Positions 505 through 32,272 of a DNA stretch of 57,334 bases are shown piece by piece (positions within the stretch are counted from its first letter, which is position 1; each line of letters starts with the position of its first letter). Position numbers and translations under genes: made by a program. A model generated the notes under the pieces. It was not told the DNA's origin. It did no database searches and was given only the letters and a program-made list of their open reading frames with translations. Source of the DNA: a virus (lineage: Duplodnaviria > Caudoviricetes); IMG/VR virus record IMGVR_UViG_3300011335_000748, positions 1 through 57,334 of that record; one strand, 5' to 3'.

Positions 505-1758
505 ATGTATGATCCTGTTCTCAATCGCCCCATGTTCCAAGCCCAGAACACCGCCACTCCAATGGCGGCTGCTCCTATGGGGGCAAAGGGCACTGGCATC
601 ACATCGATGGTGACTTCACCAGACCCTGACACCACGATGCAGCAGCTCAAGGCTTTCGGTAGTCCGGTGGCTCCGACTATGGGTTATGCCGACGGCGGTC
701 CTGTGCAGAACTTTGCAGAGGGCGGTCTCTCCAGCATCTTCAGTCGTTTTGCTGATTCCTTGAAACAAGGCGGCGGTGAAGTACCCGATAACGCGATGGT
801 CGCGACTGACGAGGATGTCGCTAATCAGCAAGCGGCAACTGCCGAAAGAATGCGGCAGAACATGGTGCAAAACGCCAAGTCAGACGAACAAAAAAGAGCG
901 GAGCTTTATGAGATTACAAGGCGGGAGGAAGAGCGTCTTTCCGGGCCGGATGCTTATGGATCCTCGGAGGGGATTGTATCCATCCCCCGCTCGGATGCTC
1001 CTTCACGGCAACCCCCTACTCCTCCTCGTCCCCCCTCTGTTCGGGAGTTTCAAAACCCATACGGTGCTACTCCTCCTAGCGATAGCGAAGAGCGTCGATA
1101 CATTGAAGAACGTGCTATGCCTAAGGCTCCTCCCATGCCTCCAGAAGGTCGCCCGACGGAAGAGCGCAGCAGCATCTCGACGGAGCTTAACAAGATCCGG
1201 GAAGAACGTAAGGCTCAATCCGCAGCGGACCGCCGCGAGAATGCTTTGATGGCGTTGATGTCCGCTGGCTTCGGTATGGCTGCGGGCAAGAGCCGTCACG
1301 CCCTTACCAACATTGCGGAAGGTGGGCAGCAGGGCATTGCTACCTTTGCCAATCTGGAGAAGAGCCGTCGCGAGGACGATAACCGCCGCTATCTGGCTGA
1401 CCTTCATGAGCGCGAGCTGCGGATGAACGAGCCTTATAAGCAAGCGATGACTGAGCAAGCGCAAGCTCAGGCTGCATACCTGAAGACCCGCCCTGCATCA
1501 GAACAGCAGCGTCAGCAGCTTCGCGAAACAACGGCAATGTACAACGCTCGCAAAGAAGCTGCTAATGAGTTTATCCGCCGCAAGAAGGACGACTATACCT
1601 TTGGTCAGCAGTTCAATAATCCGGCTACTGGTGCAGCCATGGAAAAAGAGTGGCTGGCCCGCAGAACCCGTGAACTGATGCCGGAACACTTGGCCCGCGT
1701 GATGAACGATGCTAATAATGGTTCGCAAGGAAATGTAAGCCCAACCAACGCGGAGTGA
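505..1758 (+). CDS. Putative internal virion/ejection protein, 417 aa
   Basis: AAAGG RBS; N-terminal VLNRPMF, YADGG/FAEGG motifs, helical ALMSAGFGMAAG segment; lies between the pilot-like gene and the giant virion protein. Confidence 0.6.
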   Translation: MYDPVLNRPMFQAQNTATPMAAAPMGAKGTGITSMVTSPDPDTTMQQLKAFGSPVAPTMGYADGGPVQNFAEGGLSSIFSRFADSLKQGGGEVPDNAMVATDEDVANQQAATAERMRQNMVQNAKSDEQKRAELYEITRREEERLSGPDAYGSSEGIVSIPRSDAPSRQPPTPPRPPSVREFQNPYGATPPSDSEERRYIEERAMPKAPPMPPEGRPTEERSSISTELNKIREERKAQSAADRRENALMALMSAGFGMAAGKSRHALTNIAEGGQQGIATFANLEKSRREDDNRRYLADLHERELRMNEPYKQAMTEQAQAQAAYLKTRPASEQQRQQLRETTAMYNARKEAANEFIRRKKDDYTFGQQFNNPATGAAMEKEWLARRTRELMPEHLARVMNDANNGSQGNVSPTNAE

Positions 1759-1763
1759 TCTTT

Positions 1764-4700
1764 ATGGTTGACGAAACGCCAGCCCCTTTAACTCCGCTCC
1801 AGCAATACAAGTCGACCTTCACGGGGCTAGCCGATACCCCCGACGATCAGGTTATCGACTCTTTGTATGGCGAGTACGGCAAGGCTTCCGGTATGGACAA
1901 GCGAGACTTTGCTCTCGCTTGGCAGGGCCGTGGACCAAGGATGTCCCCCCTTCAGTCAGGTATTGCTGGGCTCAAAACCAGCTACCTTACTACCAAAGCC
2001 GGAGTAGCGCAGTCTCTTGGGGCAGATGAGTCTGCCCGCAACTACCTCAAAGAAGCAGAGACCATTGAGGCTGATACAAAGGCTCGATATCAGCCTGAGT
2101 TCCGGTCGTTCGATGACGTGCGCGGCCCAATCGATCTTGCAAAATACACCGCTGAAAAGTTTGGTGAGTCTGCCCCTCAAATGGCGGCACAAGCTGCGGG
2201 TGCATTGGCCTTGACGGCTGCGTCAGCAATAGCTCCGGTAGCAGCTCCCGTTGGTATTGGTGCTCGTGTCCTTTACACAGGACTAAGGGCACTTGCCGGT
2301 ACGACAACCCGAGCTGCTGTCACCGGAAGCACCGCAGTTGGTCTGCCTCTTTACACGGGGGCCAATCTTCAGCGTCAGATGGACGAAGGTGCAAAGTTTG
2401 AGGACGTAAGCTTAGGTCGCGCAACAGCTGCGGCAGCTCTTCAGTCAACACTGGATTCGATATCTCTTGCCACTGTGTTTAAGGGCCTTCCCGGAAGCAT
2501 GCTTCAAAAAGGTGGCATCTTCCGGCAAGCGGTCATTCGTGGTGTCGAATCAGGGGCAACCGAATCCCTTACGGAAACGGCACAGCAAGCCCTTGAAATC
2601 ATGCAAGCCAATCCTCAGAAGCTGTTTGAGTTTGGAGCAGACGTTCAGAAGGAACTGAAGGAAGCGGCTATTGCTGGCGCGATCCTCGGCGGCGCAATGG
2701 GTGGTGTGGCTGGCGGGGTTCAAAAAGGATTTGAACGCAAGCCGAAGCCCGTTGATGATACCACAACCCAGCAGGGTGGCGATAATACGGGCGGCGGCGG
2801 TGACACGACTACCGACACAAGCGGTGGTGCACTTCCTCCCCCTACTCCGGGATATGCTCCTCGGACCTTTGGTTCTGAGGGTCTGACAGAACCCTCCATC
2901 CAGCGGGCAGATCCTCGGACAGGCAAACCTGTGGTTGAGGTTGGCCTTACTCAACCCGTGGAACAGGTTGTTCCGGGTAATATTACAACGGAGGCCCAAG
3001 ACCTTATCCGCTTGGTGGACCAAGGGAACATGCAGCTCACCCCTGCAATAACCCCGGAACTTCAGAGGATTCTTCAGGAGAATGGGATTGCTGTCGAGGC
3101 AAGTGACACCTCCGATACGGCCCTCGAAAAATTGCGGGCTAAGGCTACCGTAGCTCCTATTATTAAGGACAAGGTCGGAGTTCATTTCACCAATGACTTT
3201 GATCGTGCGCTCTTCTATGCCAACTCCCCAAACATTGATGAGGCAACTCGGCAAGAGTACGAGGACTTCCTGACCCATCAGGGCCTCGACAAAACCCAGA
3301 TTCTTGAACTTGGGTTGCGGCTTGAGGACAAGATCCAAGAGGAAGCTAAGACTCACTTTCAGTTAGGCAACGAAGGTCCTCTGACCTTGGACTTCTCCCG
3401 CAGGGAAGCCGCTGAGATCTACAACAACCTTCCACAGGTCGCCGACACGTGGAAGAAGTTGCAGGAGCAGGGTTACTCTGCCGAGCAGATCAATGAGGAG
3501 ATGTCCGGTGAGGCGGCATACACTAACGCCACTCGCGGGAATGTGTCTGATGCAGTGCAAAAAGACACCGGGATCTTCTATTACGACAGGTCTCCCCCTA
3601 GAACTAATGACCCAAATGCGGTTGCGGCAGTTCCGGACAAAACTTTCAAGCGCAAGTTGGAAAGCAAATTTCCCGGTCTCACCTCCATCATGGAGAACAT
3701 TGCTCAACGTCTGTTCCCCGGGACAGATATCCATTTCTTCAATGAAAAGGATCCAAATAACTTTGGTTCCTTTGCCGGTATCTGGCGTTACAAGGTGGAC
3801 CCAAGTGCCCGCCGTCCCGGAGCCATGGGCATTGCTATCAACCTTCACGATATCTTGAAGGGGGCATACTCCAAAGGGAAGCAGCCTTCCCCACGTCAGA
3901 TAGCCAATCTTGTCCATACTATCCTGCATGAACTTAGCCATCCTGCTGTTGATTCGGTCCTTACCCGACTGAATGCCGCTGATATGGAAGCGGTCATGCA
4001 ACAGTATGCTTCGGAACGTAACAGCATAGCTATTAAAAGAGAGGCCGCTGCTCGAACTATCAACCAGCATACTTTTGATCTTAAACAAAAGGGTCCTGTA
4101 ACCGAGCAAGAGCTGGCTGACCTCAAGGACAGGGTTGCCAAAAGATTTGGGGTGTCTGTTTCTTCCATAGAAAAGTTTATCGCTGACCCTAGTGTCAACG
4201 AGCTGGGTGCTTTCTGGCATAAGGACAGCCAAGAGCTAACCTACCGCAGGGACTTTCAGGAGTGGGCTGCTGAAAAAGGCATGCGCTGGATGCTCCAAGA
4301 AATCCCGGGCCGTATGCCTGAGACCGTCTTGGACAAATTTGCAGCCGCCGTTCTTAAAGCTTTGCGTCAGGTTTATGAAACCATCGAAGCTGCATTTGGT
4401 ATCCCGTACACCCCCGGCGCGTTTGAAAAAGCGATGGCGGATACGTGGGGAGCTCATGATCGTACCAACGTCAACAAACAGTTGGCGGAGAAGATGATCT
4501 TGGATCCGCGTAATAACGCTACGGGTGGACCGTGGGCTAACGGCCCCTTTGGTCCAAGGCCCTACTATTCCTCCGCTGAACTTCAGGTTGGGCCAGACGA
4601 ATATTCTCGTTCAACATCTCAATTCGGTGCACTTGCGGGTGAGGATCAAGCCAAGTACAGCTCCCCAATCGAGGACCTTCCCAAAGAACCGAGGGAGAAA

Positions 4701-7385
4701 AGGGAACAGGTTAAGGCTGACAAGACCCAAACTGCCCCTGAGAACACACAGCTTCAGCCCACTGGGAACGTAGAAACCATTGTCCGTAAACTTCGCCCTG
4801 AGGTGGAGCAAAAGGAAACGGGGATCAAGGCTTTCTTCAAGGGCATTCGTGACCTGTTGAAAGGCAACAGCTGGCGCGGAATGGCGGACTTCATTACAGA
4901 GAAGTTAGCCGACAACATGATCAAGGTCCTGCGCCTTGATGAGCGGTACGCTGCCGAGATGAAGAAGCAGGGTCGCCCCTTGGAAGCAGGGTACGACCAA
5001 CGCTATCCCGCAACCGCTCGCCTCTCGGCGTATGCGGCAGCACTTGCACGTGACAACTCCCTTGCTATGGTCGAAACAATCCTGCACCACGGTGGCAGCA
5101 TTGAGTACGTCAAGACGGGGAACGAGGCTACCGATGGGTACATCCGTGTAAACCGCAACGGTAACAAGGGCCTCACCTTCCTTGGTGATCTGATCCGTGC
5201 TGGGAAACTGGAACGCTGGCGCGACTATGCCATGGCAAAGCGCATCGCGGGCCTGACCGAGCGCGGGCTGAAAACCCCTATCACTGTTGCTGAGGCGAAC
5301 GTCATCCTTCGTGAGTACGGTCAGGATGCTGACATCGTCAAAGCTTACGAGAGTTTTCAGAAGCACAACAACAGCATGATCAAGCTGGCAGTGGACACCG
5401 GAGTGATCACCAAAGAAGCTGGTGCGATGTTTGTGAAGAACAACGACTACTACCCATTCTATCGTGAGATGGAAGAGGGCAAAGGTTTCTCGGGCCCAAT
5501 CTTCACGGCTGGTCTGATCTCCCCCACCAAGATTGCCAAGGCAATGGGCGGCACGGAGCACCTGAAGAATGACCCCGTCGAAGTGATCTTGAAGAACACC
5601 CACTTCTGGGCAAATGCTGCCGCAAAGAACGTCGCATCCAACAAGATGTATACGATGATGAAGTTCTTGGGCGAGGCTTCGGATCTTCCTGCTAAGGGCG
5701 GGGTGGTCAAGCCGGGCGAGATCGAAGGCACGACACGCATCAAGGGCAAAGAGCAGAGGTTCGTTATCAAAACTCCTGATCTTGCGGCGGCAATGGAGTC
5801 TATGGGCGCAAGCCCGATGCCAAACTGGACCAAGATCCCCGGAGCTTTCACGAGTTTCTATCGTGAACTTGTGACCCGTGATCCTACGTACATCTTTAAG
5901 AACCTAATGCGCGATCCGTTCTCGGCAATGGTTACCAGTGGCGTGAACTTCAATCCGTTTAAGGCCTTCTCAAACTTTGCGCGGGCTTTAAAGAACCCTG
6001 ACTCTATGGAGTCTTTGCTTGCTTTGCAGAACTTCGGCATCTTGGGCGGGTACAAGTCCCTCCCAAACATGGAGAACGCATCAAAACTTCTTGGTAAGGG
6101 GTTCGATCCAGCCTCCATCCAGCAAGGCAGCGTCTTTGTTGTGCCGGATGCTAATACCTTAACTGGTATAATCTCCAAGTCTTGGAACGCCCTTGGTCGT
6201 ATGTCCGAGGCTTCTGATGCTGCAACCCGTACGGCTATCTACGAAGAGGTCTTGGCAAAGACAGGCAATGAGGCCGAGGCTGCTTTCCGTGCACAGGAAG
6301 TGATGAACTTCCGCAAGCACGGCACAAACCAAGCCATCCGCATTCTGAGCATGATGGTCCCCTTCGTTAACGGTCGCATCCAAGGTATCAGTGTGGCGGC
6401 TCAGGCTTTCGCTGATGGCAACCGCATGCACACCTTGGTCAAAGGCGGGATGTTGTTCGGCGCGGCGATGGCTCTTCAGGGTCTGACCGCAGATGACAAG
6501 GACTATTTGCAGCTACCAGACTATGTTCGTCAGGGGTCCTTGGTAGTTCCGCTGAAAGTCTTGGGCATTTCTGACAAGGGATTCCTTGCCATACCAAAGC
6601 CATTTGAAATGGGCTTCATCTTCCAGACCATTCCGGAGCTGATGATCCAAGCCTATGGCACGGACAGCAAGGAAGACCGTGCGGTCAAGACCGTCATTGC
6701 AAACTACTTGGGGCAGACCTTTGGGATCAGTCCTTTCCCCTCTATCATTGCACCAATCGCTGAAGTGTACTTCAACCGCTCCAGCATGACGGGCTTGCCT
6801 ATCATCACCCAATCAATGGAGCATCTGCCTCCGGAGTTGCAGTACACTGCGGCAACATCCGACATAATAAAGAACCTCGGACAGGCGACGGGTATCTCCC
6901 CTGCAAAGTTGGAGACCATCGTTAAAGGGTACGGCGGTCAGGTCATCACCACCATGTTGACCATGCTTGATGGTATGTACCGTGCGTCAACTGGTAAGGG
7001 CGTGGAAAAGGATTTCACCCAGTATCAACCTGTCTCCACGTTCATCAAAACCGAGAAGAACACCAATCCGCAGGGAGTTGCTGACATCTATCGGCTGTCC
7101 GCTGAAATCCAAGGGCTGACCACTGGCCTTAATAACTACATCAGCTACGGCATGATCAAGGAAGCGGATAACTTGGTGAAAGAAAATCAGGGCTTGTTCG
7201 CTCTGAAACAAACTATCGGAAACTTACGTAACCAGTTGAACACCCTCAGCCGTCAGGAGCGTATCGTCATGAACAACGATGCGATCCCGCAGGAAGACCG
7301 CACACGGATGGTTGATAGTTTACGCGAGGCCCGCCGCCAGATATCCTCGGCCATGCCGGACCTCATCAAACAAACAGGAAAGTAA
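1764..7385 (+). CDS. Large polyvalent/ejection protein (about 1873 aa) with zincin-like HExxH motif and C-terminal LPD38-like domain
   Basis: GGAG RBS before ATG 1764; ILHELSH motif with downstream FQEWAAE; C-terminal IPKPFEMG..FQTIPE..PIAEVYFN..TGLPI pattern recalled from LPD38. Confidence 0.75.
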   Translation: MVDETPAPLTPLQQYKSTFTGLADTPDDQVIDSLYGEYGKASGMDKRDFALAWQGRGPRMSPLQSGIAGLKTSYLTTKAGVAQSLGADESARNYLKEAETIEADTKARYQPEFRSFDDVRGPIDLAKYTAEKFGESAPQMAAQAAGALALTAASAIAPVAAPVGIGARVLYTGLRALAGTTTRAAVTGSTAVGLPLYTGANLQRQMDEGAKFEDVSLGRATAAAALQSTLDSISLATVFKGLPGSMLQKGGIFRQAVIRGVESGATESLTETAQQALEIMQANPQKLFEFGADVQKELKEAAIAGAILGGAMGGVAGGVQKGFERKPKPVDDTTTQQGGDNTGGGGDTTTDTSGGALPPPTPGYAPRTFGSEGLTEPSIQRADPRTGKPVVEVGLTQPVEQVVPGNITTEAQDLIRLVDQGNMQLTPAITPELQRILQENGIAVEASDTSDTALEKLRAKATVAPIIKDKVGVHFTNDFDRALFYANSPNIDEATRQEYEDFLTHQGLDKTQILELGLRLEDKIQEEAKTHFQLGNEGPLTLDFSRREAAEIYNNLPQVADTWKKLQEQGYSAEQINEEMSGEAAYTNATRGNVSDAVQKDTGIFYYDRSPPRTNDPNAVAAVPDKTFKRKLESKFPGLTSIMENIAQRLFPGTDIHFFNEKDPNNFGSFAGIWRYKVDPSARRPGAMGIAINLHDILKGAYSKGKQPSPRQIANLVHTILHELSHPAVDSVLTRLNAADMEAVMQQYASERNSIAIKREAAARTINQHTFDLKQKGPVTEQELADLKDRVAKRFGVSVSSIEKFIADPSVNELGAFWHKDSQELTYRRDFQEWAAEKGMRWMLQEIPGRMPETVLDKFAAAVLKALRQVYETIEAAFGIPYTPGAFEKAMADTWGAHDRTNVNKQLAEKMILDPRNNATGGPWANGPFGPRPYYSSAELQVGPDEYSRSTSQFGALAGEDQAKYSSPIEDLPKEPREKREQVKADKTQTAPENTQLQPTGNVETIVRKLRPEVEQKETGIKAFFKGIRDLLKGNSWRGMADFITEKLADNMIKVLRLDERYAAEMKKQGRPLEAGYDQRYPATARLSAYAAALARDNSLAMVETILHHGGSIEYVKTGNEATDGYIRVNRNGNKGLTFLGDLIRAGKLERWRDYAMAKRIAGLTERGLKTPITVAEANVILREYGQDADIVKAYESFQKHNNSMIKLAVDTGVITKEAGAMFVKNNDYYPFYREMEEGKGFSGPIFTAGLISPTKIAKAMGGTEHLKNDPVEVILKNTHFWANAAAKNVASNKMYTMMKFLGEASDLPAKGGVVKPGEIEGTTRIKGKEQRFVIKTPDLAAAMESMGASPMPNWTKIPGAFTSFYRELVTRDPTYIFKNLMRDPFSAMVTSGVNFNPFKAFSNFARALKNPDSMESLLALQNFGILGGYKSLPNMENASKLLGKGFDPASIQQGSVFVVPDANTLTGIISKSWNALGRMSEASDAATRTAIYEEVLAKTGNEAEAAFRAQEVMNFRKHGTNQAIRILSMMVPFVNGRIQGISVAAQAFADGNRMHTLVKGGMLFGAAMALQGLTADDKDYLQLPDYVRQGSLVVPLKVLGISDKGFLAIPKPFEMGFIFQTIPELMIQAYGTDSKEDRAVKTVIANYLGQTFGISPFPSIIAPIAEVYFNRSSMTGLPIITQSMEHLPPELQYTAATSDIIKNLGQATGISPAKLETIVKGYGGQVITTMLTMLDGMYRASTGKGVEKDFTQYQPVSTFIKTEKNTNPQGVADIYRLSAEIQGLTTGLNNYISYGMIKEADNLVKENQGLFALKQTIGNLRNQLNTLSRQERIVMNNDAIPQEDRTRMVDSLREARRQISSAMPDLIKQTGK

Positions 7386-29453: not shown

Positions 29454-29822
29454 TTAAGCGAGGACTGAGTCGCGGGCTTTGAATTGAACCGTCGTGTCAT
29501 ACGGCTTGTAGTGTTCGCCGAACATGACTTCGAAGTAAGCATGCGGGCCGAATGTGGACCAACGCTTTGATAGGCTCGATCCCTTCCAATCCCAGATATG
29601 CATAACGAACCCCGAATAGCTATCGGGCCCGCCAACTTCGAACAGCCACTCTTTCAGGCTTTTATCGTGAGGACTGTCGATAGAAGGGATCGATAGAACA
29701 CTCTCGATATATCGACCAGTGATGCCGGACAGCTCTCCGGTCTTCCATGTCTGGACGCCGTGCCCGACGTCGTCCAGTGTGATGATCCGCATGGGGATCC
29801 GATACACTATTTCTTTTGTCAT
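29454..29822 (-). CDS. Hypothetical early protein
   Basis: First ORF after the promoter at 29874-29902. Confidence 0.55.
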   Translation of the reverse strand: MTKEIVYRIPMRIITLDDVGHGVQTWKTGELSGITGRYIESVLSIPSIDSPHDKSLKEWLFEVGGPDSYSGFVMHIWDWKGSSLSKRWSTFGPHAYFEVMFGEHYKPYDTTVQFKARDSVLA

Positions 29823-29873
29823 GTGACTTTCTTTCTTTCTCTACGGTAGAGAACCGTTCTCGACCGTGCTTAT

Positions 29874-29902
29874 ACTCTATCAGATACAATTGACATTGTC
29901 AA
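29874..29902 (-). promoter_or_regulatory. Sigma70-type promoter with perfect TTGACA-N-TGTCAA palindrome
   Basis: Minus strand TTGACAatgtcaattgtatctgaTAGAGT (17-nt spacer). Confidence 0.65.
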
Positions 29903-30229
29903 CCTATACTTTAGTCTATAAGTATTTCTACTTAGTCTCGGGTCCCTTGGGCAGTTTCCAGCTGTCAGCTGTCAGCTTTCCGACACCTTCGACCCCCCTT
30001 TCAGGCCCGCCGTTCGTCGAACTCACCTAAAAATCCGATTTTTCCCAGATCGTCAGCAACTTCAAAACATTTGGTCGACCCCCTAATTGTCAACTATTAG
30101 TAATGGGTCCCCTACCCCCACCCCATAATAAAAATTTCAAAAACTAATACCCGGGTAGCACTAGGTGCTACTTTGCCCCACTAACTGATACCCGGATTGC
30201 ACTTAGCCTTGGTTTGGTATAATCCTAAA

Positions 30230-30313
30230 GGACCGAGGTCAGAGGTTTTTTGCTGTTTCCCCTCTGTTCAGGTGGCCCACAGGAGAACAGCGTCAGGGCC
30301 ACCCCTCGGGACC
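30230..30313 (+). ncRNA. Candidate structured ncRNA: three-way junction with kissing loops
   Basis: TGG-TATAAT at 30215-30223; stems CCGAGG/CCTCGG, CAGAGG/CCTCTG, GGTGGCCC/GGGCCACC; loop complementarity GCTGTT/AACAGC; hairpin downstream. Confidence 0.55.
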
Positions 30314-30318
30314 ACAAC

Positions 30319-30345
30319 AAAAAGGGGAGCCTAAGCCCCCCTTTG
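30319..30345. terminator. Probable bidirectional terminator
   Basis: AAAAAGGGGAGC-CTAA-GCCCCCCTTT between convergent units. Confidence 0.6.
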
Positions 30346-30367
30346 TAGAGTCGATAGGTTGTGTGGA

Positions 30368-30577
30368 TTAGAAGAGTTCTTCTTCTTCAGCTTCTTCAAC
30401 AACGATATAGTCGTCGTCCATCAGATCGTAGAGCTGGTCGATGAGCATGTAGAGTGCACCAATGCGCTCTGGCAAAGAGCATGCCATAAACTCATCTGAA
30501 AGGTTGAACTGAACGAGATCAACATCATCGTCTGATGTGCTACGTTCGATAACAGCAGTACCGATTACAACAGTCAT
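30368..30577 (-). CDS. Small highly acidic protein
   Basis: AGGAG RBS; 19 D/E versus 2 R in 69 aa. Confidence 0.6.
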   Translation of the reverse strand: MTVVIGTAVIERSTSDDDVDLVQFNLSDEFMACSLPERIGALYMLIDQLYDLMDDDYIVVEEAEEEELF

Positions 30578-30663
30578 GGCAAACTCCTATGGGTGTGGTG
30601 GAACGCTTGCAAACTACAGATCAAAGATGACACTAAAAAGACGTGGTTTTTTCTATGCTGCAC

Positions 30664-30692
30664 TTGCGAAGGGCAACTATTTAATGTATATT
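30664..30692 (+). promoter_or_regulatory. Sigma70-type promoter for the suhB-like sRNA
   Basis: TTGCGA-N17-TATATT. Confidence 0.6.
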
Positions 30693-30698
30693 GCATTT

Positions 30699-30781
30699 AC
30701 ACCGTGTCATTCTCCGTGGTGTTTCCTCCCTAGACTTGGGACGGTAGCTGTGGACAAAACCCGGTTACCGTCTCCCTTTTC
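30699..30781 (+). ncRNA. suhB/MmgR (alpha-r8)-like small RNA
   Basis: GGTGTTTCCTCCCTAGACTTG core, matching the family core as recalled, followed by a 13-bp terminator stem (30738-30750/30762-30774) and a T tract. Confidence 0.75.
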
Positions 30782-30799
30782 TCTTCGGAGCTTTATCCT

Positions 30800-32272
30800 T
30801 TGCCCTCTGACCTTGCACACAGCCTCCCGGAAGATGCGGCTCGCCAATATGCTCGTCTTTTGGAAAGAGCCACACGCCTTGCTACCTTAGAGAAGGCGAG
30901 AGGTGGCTTCCTTGATTTCGTAAAGTTTGTGTGGCCCGGTTTCATTGCCGGGCGGCATCACCGCATTGTAGCCGAGAAGCTTGAGGCCATGGCGCGTGGC
31001 GAGCTCAAGCGTTTGATTATCAACATGCCGCCGAGACATACAAAGTCGGAGTTTGCCAGCTACCTGTTTCCGGCTTGGTTCATTGGGCAGATGCCCCACA
31101 AAAAGATTATGCAAGCGACCCATACCGCTGATCTGTCGATCCGGTTCGGGCGTAAAGTGAGAAACCTGATGGATGGGGATATGTACAAACCCATCTTTCC
31201 TGATGTGAAACTTCGGTCAGATTCCAAGGCAGCGTACCGCTGGGAGACCGATCAAGGAGGAGAATATTATGCAGCGGGTGTTGGAGGTAATATTGCGGGG
31301 CGTGGAGCTGATCTCTTCATTGTTGACGATCCGCACTCAGAGCAAGACGCTCTCTCCCCCACAGCAATGGAAGGCGCATGGGACTGGTATCAGTCAGGAC
31401 CACGGCAGCGTCTTCAGCCCGGAGGGGCGATCCTTGTTGTTATGACCCGGTGGGGTGAGTCGGATCTCACGGCCCGCCTTTTAAGACAGCAAGCGACAGA
31501 TCCCAAGGCTGATCAATGGGAGATCGTGGAGTTTCCTGCAATCTTGGAAAGCGGTGAGCCGCTATGGCCTGAGTACTGGAAGCTTGAGGAACTAGAGGGG
31601 ATCAAGGCTTCGATCACCCTGTCCAAGTGGCAAGCGCAGTATATGCAGCAGCCGACGGCGGACTCAGTCTCGATCATCAAGCGCAGCTGGTGGAACGTGT
31701 GGGATCATGAGAAGGTCCCCCGTTTGCAGTATGTGATGCAGTCGTACGACACGGCGCACACCAAGAAGAAAACAGCCGACTACAGCGCGATCCAGACGTG
31801 GGGGGTGTTCTACCCCAAAGAGGATGGTCCGGCGAATGTCATCCTGCTGGACTGCAAGAAGGGCAGATGGGAGTTCCCCGAGCTCAAACGCATCGCCCTT
31901 GATGAGTACAAGTACTGGGAACCGGAGACGGTCCTGATCGAAGCGAAGGCTGCGGGTCTCCCTTTGCTACAGGAACTCCGAAGCGTGGGCATCCCGGCGG
32001 TGGACTTTACGCCGAGTCGCGGGAATGATAAGCATGTACGTCTGAACTCCGTTGCTTCGCTGTTCGAAGCGGGGCTGGTTTGGAGGCCGGACGCATCGTG
32101 GGCGGAGGAAGTGGTCGAGGAGATAGCAGCCTTCCCCAACGGTGAGCACGACGACTTGGTTGACTGCGCTTCACAGGCCCTCATGCGATTCCGGCAGGGT
32201 GGCTTTGTTACACATCCGGATGACTACCAAATGGACGAAGGTCCAAGGTCAACGTACAGGGTTTATTACTGA
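30800..32272 (+). CDS. terL: Terminase large subunit
   Basis: INMPPRHTKS Walker A, GRGADLFIVDDP Walker B, MTRW, SYDTA, HDDLVD nuclease motifs. Confidence 0.95.
   Translation: MPSDLAHSLPEDAARQYARLLERATRLATLEKARGGFLDFVKFVWPGFIAGRHHRIVAEKLEAMARGELKRLIINMPPRHTKSEFASYLFPAWFIGQMPHKKIMQATHTADLSIRFGRKVRNLMDGDMYKPIFPDVKLRSDSKAAYRWETDQGGEYYAAGVGGNIAGRGADLFIVDDPHSEQDALSPTAMEGAWDWYQSGPRQRLQPGGAILVVMTRWGESDLTARLLRQQATDPKADQWEIVEFPAILESGEPLWPEYWKLEELEGIKASITLSKWQAQYMQQPTADSVSIIKRSWWNVWDHEKVPRLQYVMQSYDTAHTKKKTADYSAIQTWGVFYPKEDGPANVILLDCKKGRWEFPELKRIALDEYKYWEPETVLIEAKAAGLPLLQELRSVGIPAVDFTPSRGNDKHVRLNSVASLFEAGLVWRPDASWAEEVVEEIAAFPNGEHDDLVDCASQALMRFRQGGFVTHPDDYQMDEGPRSTYRVYY

What the first reader, a model, noticed from the sequence alone, without database searches (positions are those of the whole stretch)
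30215..30345. Stand-alone three-way-junction RNA with complementary kissing loops near the packaging genes
Seen: extended -10 TGG-TATAAT, then P1 30233-38/30304-09, P2 30240-45/30261-66 and P3 30271-78/30296-303. The two loops are complementary (GCTGTT 30252-57 with AACAGC 30286-91, extendable by TCC/GGA). A terminator hairpin follows, and there is no ORF. Known: a three-way junction with loop-loop pairing is the architecture of phi29 pRNA and of purine riboswitches. Inference: an uncharacterised ncRNA, possibly oligomerising through its loops or acting as a protein decoy. No homology to pRNA is claimed.
Basis: partly seen in the sequence, partly recalled or inferred. Interest (0 to 1): 0.75.

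Follow-up and report, generated by a model that had tools for sequence, protein, structure and literature searches.

The report
Phage copy of CyVA-1 RNA
The three-stem RNA upstream of the phage's packaging genes belongs to an already catalogued RNA family of unknown function (CyVA-1), and comparing its relatives suggests that its two matching loops join two RNA units together.

Summary
Window 30233-30309 (+) folds into P1/P2/P3, and its two loops carry complementary 6-nt boxes. It is not uncharacterised: Rfam's CyVA-1 model (RF02965) matches it end to end at 53.2 bits (cut-off 41.4).

The window is a complete 57-kb phage genome. The same RNA lies upstream of terL in 8 close relatives. A second, unrelated complete phage also carries a copy, as do genomes of Cyanobacteria, Acidobacteriota and Alphaproteobacteria.

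The loop-loop pairing covaries. Cyanobacterial copies are nearly always tandem: CyVA-1 plus a ~95-nt variant that matched no Rfam family in the 10 loci scanned. There the boxes pair crosswise between the two units: 97.7% of cells paired, against 83.0% within a unit. Solo copies, including the phage's, have perfectly self-complementary boxes (15 of 16).

I infer that the phage RNA is a stand-alone small RNA that probably homodimerises through its loops. A monomeric pseudoknot is not excluded. Transcription, ends, partner and function are untested. The "terminator" belongs to an inserted minus-strand gene. Interest is moderate.

The parts
30197..30202 (+). -35-like hexamer TTGCAC, 15 nt upstream of the -10
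   Evidence: Read by eye. Not listed by the promoter scan, which needs a 16-18 nt spacer.
30215..30223 (+). Extended -10-like TGGTATAAT. It would place a transcript start near 30230-30231, 2-3 nt before P1.
   Evidence: It is kept in relatives L081 and L082. Five other relatives have a different upstream sequence. A contig of run X12 has T>C at 30223. No transcript start was measured.
30233..30309 (+). CyVA-1 RNA (Rfam RF02965), solo type. P1 is 30233-38/30304-09, P2 is 30240-45/30261-66, P3 is 30271-78/30296-303.
   Evidence: 53.2 bits against a cut-off of 41.4, model positions 1-77 of 77. The MFE fold gives the same helices.
30252..30257 (+). Loop-2 box GCUGUU, the partner of the loop-3 box
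   Evidence: Covariation on 50 homologues. Cross-unit pairing in tandem copies.
30286..30291 (+). Loop-3 box AACAGC. It is flanked by the family's conserved loop-3 residues: AGGAG on its 5' side (model consensus GAAGGAG) and GUCAGG on its 3' side.
30321..30344 (-). G+C-rich hairpin, terminator-like on the minus strand. It probably ends the 69-aa gene and may also stop plus-strand transcripts.
   Evidence: minus strand only. Absent together with the 69-aa gene in L081/L082 and in contigs of runs X12 and X15.
30368..30577 (-). 69-aa acidic ORF. Together with the hairpin it forms an indel module (about 30310-30685) between CyVA-1 and the terL leader. It is not part of the RNA.
   Evidence: 75-82% identical copies occur in 7 relatives.
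30699..30789 (+). terL leader with a terminator-like hairpin and a U-run just before the terL ribosome-binding site. Listed as context, not as part of CyVA-1.
   Evidence: Weak Rfam suhB/mmgR match: 29.6 bits, cut-off 41. Sequence.
30800..32272 (+). Large terminase subunit gene (context)
   Evidence: phrog_38 at E 3.1e-111. Pfam Terminase_6C.

Best explanation
Window 30233-30309 (+) is a phage-borne, solo-type member of the known CyVA-1 RNA family. I read it as a small stand-alone RNA made by the host polymerase. It would probably start 2-3 nt before P1, from the extended -10 at 30215-30223. It folds into a three-way junction whose loops carry conserved residues and two complementary 6-nt boxes.

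Shown:
- family membership;
- the three helices;
- that the box-box pairing is under selection;
- that in tandem cyanobacterial copies the boxes pair between the two units rather than within a unit.

Inferred: the working form of CyVA-1 is a two-unit assembly held by two reciprocal 6-bp kissing helices. The phage RNA's boxes are perfectly self-complementary, so it would form that assembly as a homodimer.

Guessed: the dimer presents the invariant unpaired loop residues to a widely conserved cellular partner and acts in trans during infection. The partner could be a protein, another RNA or a small molecule. The biological role is unknown.
For: Membership:
- Rfam RF02965 matches at 53.2 bits against 41.4, over the full model.

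Fold:
- The MFE fold gives P1/P2/P3.
- With the loop cores held unpaired, 40 of 50 homologues fold into all three helices and 10 of 50 into P2+P3 only. Stem sequences differ widely.
- Within the phage lineage one P3 pair is C-G in the window, A-U in L079 and C.U in L081.

Box pairing within one unit, 50 homologues:
- 90.3% of 300 cells pair, against 34-60% when the partner is slid.
- Three pairs change on both sides.
- 0 of 500 shuffles reach the covariation score.

Cross-unit pairing, 29 tandem regions:
- Cross helices pair in 97.7% of 348 cells. Seven of 12 pairs and 55 cells change on both sides, covariation is 0.455, and 0 of 500 shuffles reach it.
- Within-unit helices pair in 83.0% of cells, with covariation 0.281.
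- Over 17 distinct box combinations, cross pairing gives 183 Watson-Crick pairs of 204 and self pairing 127. Cross exceeds self in 15, equals it in 2 and is never lower. Partner shuffles reach the observed value 0 of 10000 times for each cross helix.

Solo copies:
- 15 of 16 (3 phage, 11 Acidobacteriota, 2 Alphaproteobacteria) have 6 of 6 Watson-Crick pairs between their own boxes.
- None of the 16 has a second unit within 200 nt, against 32 of 34 cyanobacterial copies.

Stand-alone gene:
- In the window, a convergent gene and a hairpin separate the RNA from terL. Relatives lack this module, yet the RNA is kept, with the breakpoint exactly at the P1 end.
- The unrelated phage G556 has a plus-strand terminator-like hairpin right after its copy.
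- Bacterial neighbours are heterogeneous.
- A family member was reported in a metatranscriptome (passage seen).
Against: - No transcript of this copy was seen. The one RNA-library run laid covered only 30716-30869, and contigs cannot show ends.
- The promoter is weakly supported. See the observation check and the parts list.
- Covariation cannot tell an intramolecular loop-loop helix from an intermolecular one. The loops are long (15 and 17 nt), so a monomeric pseudoknot looks sterically possible.
- The dimer reading rests on homology with tandem copies. Their second unit differs: it has an extra hairpin in loop 3.
- Sequences are related, and 29 of the 50 came through a pattern that fixed several box positions. 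The shuffle counts are therefore not probabilities.
- My CM alignment mis-registers P1 and P2 for one cyanobacterial subtype. Stem support rests on constrained folds, not on pair counts.
- One 6-bp box helix is worth only about -6 kcal/mol.
Confidence: 0.5

Rival explanations
1. Same family and same stand-alone RNA, but the phage copy works as a monomer. Loops 2 and 3 pair within one molecule, giving a compact pseudoknotted three-way junction. This would resemble the side-by-side helices of a purine riboswitch aptamer (recalled). That fold would bind a protein or ligand.
For: The window's own boxes are perfectly complementary. Pairing within one molecule is favoured over dimerisation if geometry allows it. 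The loops are long: 15 and 17 nt, with 6+3 and 7+4 unpaired flanking residues. Within-unit pairing is 90.3% over all 50 homologues.
Against: In tandem copies, selection keeps the cross-unit helices near-perfect. The within-unit helices carry a central mismatch plus a wobble: C.A in 12 and 9 of 17 combinations, and U.G in 9 and 12. If the within-unit helix were the working state, it should have been kept there. The junction strands, where riboswitch ligands usually bind, are not conserved.
Confidence: 0.35
2. The element is a cis-acting 5' leader of the late (packaging and structural) operon. It would control read-through or translation of terL and is not an independent RNA.
For: It lies upstream of terL on the same strand in the window and in the 8 relatives whose locus reaches terL. 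In L082 it lies only 139 nt upstream, with no hairpin in between. A terminator-like leader lies just before terL.
Against: In the window and 7 relatives, a convergent minus-strand gene and a strong hairpin sit between the RNA and terL, yet the RNA is unchanged. A separate promoter-like site lies at 30664-30692. In cyanobacteria the next ORF downstream is mostly on the opposite strand. Neighbours in other bacteria share no family. No packaging-gene family was matched among the 10 neighbouring ORFs of the second phage that I scanned.
Confidence: 0.1
3. It acts as DNA, for example as a packaging or replication signal. Alternatively it is a chance fold or a small protein-coding ORF.
For: It sits next to terL. 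ORFs of 31-45 aa overlap it. The folding z-scores are modest.
Against: The Rfam E-value is 2.2e-9. The box helices hold many G-U pairs, which pair only on this strand as RNA. Homologues lie in bacterial chromosomes far from any terminase. The genome ends are direct terminal repeats at the window ends.
Confidence: 0.03

Closest known systems
CyVA-1 RNA motif (Rfam RF02965; Weinberg et al. 2017, PMC5737381, passages seen)
   Same: Full-length match above the curated cut-off. It has the same three helices and the same conserved loop residues: UUUU-G/A-C-Y-G-U-U in loop 2 and AGGAGAAC..CGUCAGG in loop 3.
   Different: It sits in a complete phage genome, not in a cyanobacterium. It is a single unit, whereas 32 of 34 cyanobacterial copies are followed by a second, variant unit. 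It lacks the 2-nt strand between P3 and P1. Its score of 53 bits falls in the range of the non-cyanobacterial copies (45-59 bits). Cyanobacterial copies reach 41-85 bits, and all copies above 60 bits are cyanobacterial.
phi29 prohead RNA (pRNA); properties recalled, not from a call
   Same: A phage RNA with a three-way junction and two loops whose complementarity joins separate molecules into a closed assembly. It is also encoded in a genome with packaging genes.
   Different: No Rfam pRNA match at E up to 1 in 29800-30800. The size and sequences differ. Most CyVA-1 copies lie in bacterial chromosomes. Nothing here links CyVA-1 to proheads.
Purine riboswitch aptamer; properties recalled
   Same: A three-way junction of similar size with a loop-loop contact between P2 and P3.
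   Different: No Rfam match. Conservation sits in the loops, not in the junction. There is no consistent downstream gene. The loop-loop contact is a 6-bp helix that pairs across units in tandem copies.
Natural RNA-only multimers: ROOL, GOLLD and OLE (PMC12286853, search listing and start of abstract); manA and EGFOA short RNAs (bioRxiv 10.64898/2026.07.01.735769, outline and abstract)
   Same: Orphan bacterial RNA motifs found by comparative genomics. By their abstracts they assemble with themselves. Kissing-loop contacts are among the listed papers' search terms.
   Different: Those assemblies were solved by cryo-EM. For CyVA-1 the two-unit form is inferred from covariation only. Neither paper was among the three that hold the term CyVA-1.
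Tandem-domain riboswitches, such as glycine and guanidine-II; recalled
   Same: Two similar RNA units in one transcript that contact each other, as in the cyanobacterial CyVA-1 pairs.
   Different: No ligand, no expression platform and no regulated downstream gene is evident. The phage copy is a single unit.

Membership tests
CyVA-1 (Rfam RF02965) | Covariance-model score at or above the curated gathering score, over the whole model | tested here: met
   53.2 bits against 41.4, model positions 1-77 of 77, E 2.2e-9 for the window.
CyVA-1 (Rfam RF02965) | Three helices around one junction (P1 closing, with hairpins P2 and P3) | tested here: met
   The MFE fold of the window RNA. The same layout appears in 40 of 50 homologues under constrained folding.
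CyVA-1 (Rfam RF02965) | Conserved loop residues of the model consensus (GUUUU.CCGUU in loop 2; GAAGGAGAaCGACGUCA in loop 3) | tested here: met
   Alignment to the model. Invariant and 90% columns of 50 homologues. The window differs at the covarying box positions, and loop 3 begins CA instead of GA.
CyVA-1 (Rfam RF02965) | Occurrence in Cyanobacteria (the source of the family's name; the meaning of the name is recalled) | tested here: not met
   The window is a phage genome of about 52% G+C. Its box variant GCUGUU/AACAGC was seen elsewhere only in two alphaproteobacterial genomes. The host is unknown. This is a range, not a structural criterion, so membership stands.
CyVA-1, cyanobacterial tandem form (described here) | A second variant unit 27-89 nt downstream whose boxes pair crosswise with the first | tested here: not met
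   No second unit in the window (model R1 finds one match; motif count). The window's boxes are self-complementary.
phi29-type pRNA | Match to the Rfam pRNA model; binding to proheads | tested here: not met
   No such match at E up to 1 in 29800-30800. Prohead binding cannot be tested with these tools.
Purine riboswitch | Match to the Rfam model; conserved junction residues; a downstream regulated gene | tested here: not met
   No match. The junction is not conserved. There is no consistent downstream gene.
mmgR/suhB sRNA (RF00519), for the neighbouring element 30699-30789 | Score at or above the gathering score | tested here: not met
   29.6 bits against 41. E 6.7e-4 applies to a 1-kb search only. 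It was not listed in the whole-window gathering search.

The most novel reading that the evidence does not exclude
CyVA-1 is a small self-assembling RNA whose working form is a closed pair of units, locked by two reciprocal and mutually orthogonal 6-bp kissing helices. Cyanobacteria encode the pair as a hetero-tandem in one transcript. Phages, Acidobacteriota and Alphaproteobacteria encode a single unit with self-complementary boxes, which homodimerises. The phage would carry it to place a ready-made RNA assembly in the infected cell. There it would engage a conserved host component through the invariant purine-rich loop residues.
Probability: 0.4. Interest if true: 0.65.

Novelty: new member of a known kind. 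Interest (0 to 1): 0.42.

Why it matters
The element itself is a catalogued orphan RNA, so finding one more copy is minor. Three things learned on the way may matter.

1. The family is not confined to Cyanobacteria. It occurs in two unrelated complete phage genomes and, sporadically, in Acidobacteriota and Alphaproteobacteria. By the criteria quoted from the 2017 paper, an RNA is a candidate for a demanding biochemical role if it occurs in several phyla, has a multistem junction or pseudoknot, and has many invariant residues.

2. The loop-loop helix is supported by covariation. In tandem copies it joins two units. This gives a concrete, cheap bench test (native gels with box-swap mutants) for a natural small RNA dimer. 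Natural RNA-only assemblies are under active study.

3. The tandem partner unit matched no Rfam family in the 10 loci scanned.

All three claims of newness are conditional.

Tried and rejected
- **Expression.** The look-up of sequencing runs listed mostly DNA metagenomes. I laid two possible RNA runs and two DNA runs.
  - The RNA-library run X20 gave one 154-nt contig on 30716-30869 and nothing on CyVA-1.
  - X19 matched only two short pieces, 29900-29935 and 30113-30149.
  - This neither shows nor excludes transcription.
- **Prophage link.** terL homologues in five CyVA-1-bearing genomes lie on other contigs than their CyVA-1, or were not found.
- **Mobile-element link.** I recalled that the family is described as associated with mobile elements, and looked for integrase or phage genes among the neighbours.
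  - I scanned 68 ORFs from 13 non-cyanobacterial loci and 141 ORFs from 32 cyanobacterial loci.
  - For the cyanobacterial set, 9 ORFs over 900 aa and 5 ORFs beyond the 150-sequence limit were left out.
  - None appears among the 25 most frequent families listed in either tally, apart from one Tn3 transposase. Only 25 of 68 and 25 of 202 families are shown, and ORFs came from my own crude caller.
- **Cultured relatives.** HTVC027P, 023Pt_psg01, DSL-LC04 and MinM2 hold no CyVA-1 (0 of 4).
- **Stem covariation with my own model.** R1 was built on a MAFFT alignment and mis-registers P1 and P2 for one cyanobacterial subtype. I did not use it for stem pair counts.
- **TCC/GGA extension.** Not supported.
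- **Repeats.** Repeats around the element and further copies of the conserved upstream block in the window: none.
- **Second phage.** PHROGs matched only one of 10 neighbouring ORFs, weakly (a head-decoration family, E 1.9e-8). So no context could be read.
- **Viral-contig pattern scans.** These were mostly chance hits.
  - 7 of 76 records searched held the family over the cut-off.
  - Of the 19 loci searched with R1, 1 matched (L242); L248 matched as well.
- **Literature.** 'CyVA-1' is in 3 papers. 'cyanobacterial variable area' is in 0.
- **Not tried.** R-scape is not on hand. No 3D RNA modelling was done. No duplex prediction was run between CyVA-1 and the terL leader; I judged a 4-bp GGAG/CUCC match uninformative.
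Full report
**1. The observation.**
- TGGTATAAT lies at 30215-30223.
- P1 is 30233-38 with 30304-09, P2 is 30240-45 with 30261-66, and P3 is 30271-78 with 30296-303.
- The loop boxes are GCTGTT (30252-57) and AACAGC (30286-91).
- A G+C-rich hairpin lies at 30321-30344.

ViennaRNA returns the same three-way junction without any constraint. The fold is only modestly better than shuffles: z -2.26 and -2.58, with 6 and 2 of 200 shuffles folding as well. Energy alone would not carry the claim.

**2. What it is.**
A scan of the whole window against Rfam 15 at gathering thresholds gives one match. It is RF02965, CyVA-1, at 30233-30309 on the plus strand, with 53.2 bits against a cut-off of 41.4, E 2.2e-9, and model positions 1-77 of 77 (alignment).

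The family comes from Weinberg et al. 2017 (PMC5737381). I saw only passages of the main text. A second paper reports CyVA-1 among RNAs detected in a halite metatranscriptome of Cyanobacteria (passage). The term occurs in 3 held papers. I recall that the name refers to variable genome areas of Cyanobacteria and that the RNA is thought to act in trans. That is memory, not a call, and the phrase 'cyanobacterial variable area' is in no held paper.

**3. The genome.**
The window is a complete virus record of 57,334 bp with direct terminal repeats.
- It encodes helicases, a primase, a DNA polymerase and a dCMP deaminase, and the large terminase and portal.
- I found no phage RNA polymerase among the ORFs I scanned.
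- G+C is 0.48-0.55.
- The nearest cultured terminases are those of Pelagibacter phages HTVC027P (61.5%) and HTVC023P (57.2%). Cyanophages of the MinM2 type are at 48%.
- None of four such relatives holds CyVA-1 (0 of 4).
- The stretch occurs in riverine, lake and sediment metagenomes. The host is unknown.

**4. Where else the RNA occurs.**
- *Viral contigs.* Pattern scans followed by the Rfam model found it over the cut-off in 7 of 76 records searched, plus an eighth (G557, 52.6 bits). All eight are close relatives of the window.
  - terL is 92-96% identical and starts about 510-590 nt downstream of the RNA. In L082 it starts 139 nt downstream.
  - The locus of L081 ends before terL.
- *A second phage.* The unrelated, complete 66-kb phage genome G556 (the RNA match has G+C 0.66) has a copy at 43 bits. 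A plus-strand terminator-like hairpin follows it directly.
- *Prokaryote genomes found by pattern.* A two-loop pattern found 30 loci in 29 genomes. Of these, 22 hold the family over the cut-off.
  - They are Cyanobacteria (44-82 bits over the cut-off; every copy above 60 bits is cyanobacterial), nine Acidobacteriota and two Alphaproteobacteria (45-59 bits).
- *Even samples.* The family was over the cut-off in 15 of 151 Cyanobacteria, 2 of 151 Acidobacteriota and 1 of 151 Alphaproteobacteria. Each count includes the genome that served as the centre.

So the family is common in Cyanobacteria and sporadic elsewhere.

**5. The helices and the loop-loop pairing.**
I aligned 50 distinct homologues, built a covariance model and re-aligned them.
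- The loops align well. P1 and P2 are mis-registered for one cyanobacterial subtype, so I did not count stem pairs on that alignment.
- Instead I folded each sequence with the loop cores held unpaired. 40 of 50 gave P1+P2+P3 and 10 of 50 gave P2+P3 only, with very different stem sequences.
- For the 6-bp box helix, 90.3% of 300 cells pair, against 34-60% for slid partners.
- Three pairs change on both sides: GC 28/GU 10/AU 8; UG 23/CG 20/UA 5; UA 35/UG 8/CG 7.
- No shuffle of 500 reaches the covariation score.
- One pair is a C.A mismatch in 19 sequences.

**6. The unexpected part: tandem units that pair crosswise.**
In cyanobacterial loci my model found a second, weaker match about 100-150 nt (start to start) downstream on the same strand.
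- It is a ~95-nt variant with the same P1/P2/P3 plan and an extra hairpin inside loop 3.
- A loop-2-like motif lies 27-89 nt downstream of 32 of 34 cyanobacterial copies. It follows 0 of 11 acidobacterial, 0 of 2 alphaproteobacterial and 0 of 3 phage copies.
- No Rfam family covers this second unit in 10 loci scanned at gathering thresholds.

Reading the four boxes in 29 tandem loci gives 17 distinct combinations.
- The loop-2 box of unit 1 matches the loop-3 box of unit 2, and the reverse holds too.
- Cross pairing gives 183 Watson-Crick plus 11 G-U pairs of 204 cells. Within-unit pairing gives 127 plus 37.
- Cross exceeds self in 15 combinations, equals it in 2 and is never lower.
- Shuffling partners among genomes reaches the observed value in 0 of 10000 trials for each helix.

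The pair-counting tool agrees on a MAFFT alignment of the 29 regions.

| Measure | Cross helices | Within-unit helices |
|---|---|---|
| Cells paired, of 348 | 97.7% | 83.0% |
| Pairs changed on both sides, of 12 | 7 | 4 |
| Cells changed on both sides | 55 | 21 |
| Covariation score | 0.455 | 0.281 |

- For the cross helices, 0 of 500 shuffles reach the covariation score, and slid controls pair in 31-50% of cells.
- In the within-unit helices, 16, 19 and 9 of 29 cells are unpaired at three positions.

The two cross helices differ from each other at two central positions. Each within-unit combination therefore has a mismatch and a wobble. They behave as two orthogonal locks.

**7. Consequence for the phage copy.**
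Solo copies have perfectly complementary boxes within the one unit. Fifteen of 16 show 6 of 6 Watson-Crick pairs. The variants are GCUGUU/AACAGC (phage and Alphaproteobacteria), and GCCGUU/AACGGC and ACCGUU/AACGGU (Acidobacteria). The second phage has GUCGCU/AGCGAC.

If the family's working form is the two-unit assembly seen in tandems, a solo RNA reaches it by homodimerising through two reciprocal helices. Each helix is worth about -6 to -8 kcal/mol.
- This is an inference from homology.
- Covariation cannot tell pairing within a molecule from pairing between molecules.
- The loops are long enough for a monomeric pseudoknot.

I put the dimer at about one half and the monomer at about one third.

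**8. Transcription unit.**
*For a stand-alone RNA:*
- The extended -10 sits 9 nt before P1.
- Similar TGn-TAnnnT elements lie 14-22 nt before P1 in one cyanobacterial subtype. TTGCC-17-TAGCCT-like elements appear in Acidobacteria. Both were read by eye.
- The second phage's copy is followed by its own plus-strand terminator-like hairpin, and by eye a hairpin with a T-run also precedes it.
- Bacterial neighbours are heterogeneous.

- The promoter is shared with only L081 and L082. Five relatives have TTGACA...TTAATA abutting P1 instead.
- One metagenome contig has T>C at the last T of the -10.
- TGNTATAAT is not rarer than chance in the window.
- The hairpin at 30321-30344 scores as a terminator only on the minus strand.
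- The hairpin and the minus-strand 69-aa ORF (30368-30577) form a module that is missing in L081/L082 and in contigs of two lake metagenomes. The junction falls exactly after 30309, the last base of P1.

So the RNA unit ends at P1, and the hairpin came with the inserted gene. Because the RNA is kept unchanged with and without that module, I rate a cis-acting terL leader as unlikely (0.1).

**9. Expression.**
Not shown for this copy. The single RNA-library run that held part of the stretch gave one contig on 30716-30869 only.

**10. Function.**
Unknown for the whole family.
- Conservation sits in the unpaired loop residues next to the boxes: UUUU, GAAGGAG (AGGAG in the window) and GUCAGG. It does not sit in the junction.
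- These residues are nearly the same in three phyla and two phages. This points to a widely conserved partner.
- The 2017 paper's own criteria for a demanding biochemical role are occurrence in several phyla, a pseudoknot or multistem junction, and many highly conserved residues. On my data they are now met.
- I could not test any partner.

**11. Comparison and novelty.**
It is a member of CyVA-1 by every structural test I could run. It is not a pRNA or a purine riboswitch (no Rfam match), though it may work like pRNA in joining units through loop complementarity.

The element itself is a new member of a known kind. Three observations may be new:
- the phage and cross-phylum range;
- the covarying kissing helix;
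- the tandem partner with crosswise pairing.

Noticed in passing
window 30699-30789 (+): The terL leader gives a weak Rfam suhB/mmgR match: 29.6 bits against a cut-off of 41, with a 17-nt identical core GUUUCCUCCCUAGACUU. It ends in a terminator-like hairpin plus a U-run directly before the terL ribosome-binding site (GGAG 30787-90, TTG 30800). A promoter-like site lies at 30664-30692. The layout recalls a short terminated leader RNA ahead of a phage late operon, as in lambda (recalled). An RNA-library contig covers 30716-30869.
   Followed up: partly
window 30310-30685: An indel module made of the hairpin 30321-30344 and a 69-aa acidic ORF on the minus strand (30368-30577). It is present in the window and 7 relatives. 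It is absent in L081/L082 and in contigs of runs X12 and X15, which join 30309 to 30686 or 30712.
   Followed up: yes
window 30100-30146: A block upstream of the RNA (GTAATGGGTCCCC...AAAAACTA) is nearly invariant in all 8 aligned phages, while the sequence between it and P1 is replaced in 5 of them. It occurs once in the window. A 37-nt piece matches a contig of run X19 that is otherwise unlike. Its function is unknown.
   Followed up: partly
cyanobacterial loci, e.g. L150:1392-1487 (-), L160:1650-1745 (+), L120:1393-1488 (-): A ~95-nt variant of CyVA-1 with an extra hairpin in loop 3 follows 32 of 34 cyanobacterial copies. It matches no Rfam family at gathering score in the 10 loci scanned.
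   Followed up: yes
cyanobacterial loci, e.g. L183:5207-5893 (-), L208:5220-5960 (-): A conserved ~230-aa hydrophobic, probably multi-pass membrane protein lies on the same strand, mostly 94-143 nt upstream of CyVA-1, in 20 of 32 cyanobacterial loci. It has no Pfam or NCBIfam family, and its Atlas clusters are named hypothetical and are cyanobacterial. There is no homologue in the window.
   Followed up: partly
L251:6209-6285 (= G556:C1:32208-32284): A second, unrelated complete phage genome (66 kb; the RNA match has G+C 0.66) carries a solo CyVA-1 with a perfect GUCGCU/AGCGAC box pair. A hairpin with a T-run precedes it (read by eye), and its own plus-strand terminator-like hairpin follows. 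Only one of the 10 neighbouring ORFs scanned had a PHROG match, and that match was weak.
   Followed up: partly
window 1755-7385 (+): A 1876-aa ORF that matches only PHROGs of unknown function (phrog_18222, phrog_9854).
   Followed up: no
window 30315-30364 (-): A weak Rfam CrcZ match (17.5 bits, cut-off 95). It is just the G+C-rich hairpin read on the minus strand and is not a CrcZ RNA.
   Followed up: yes
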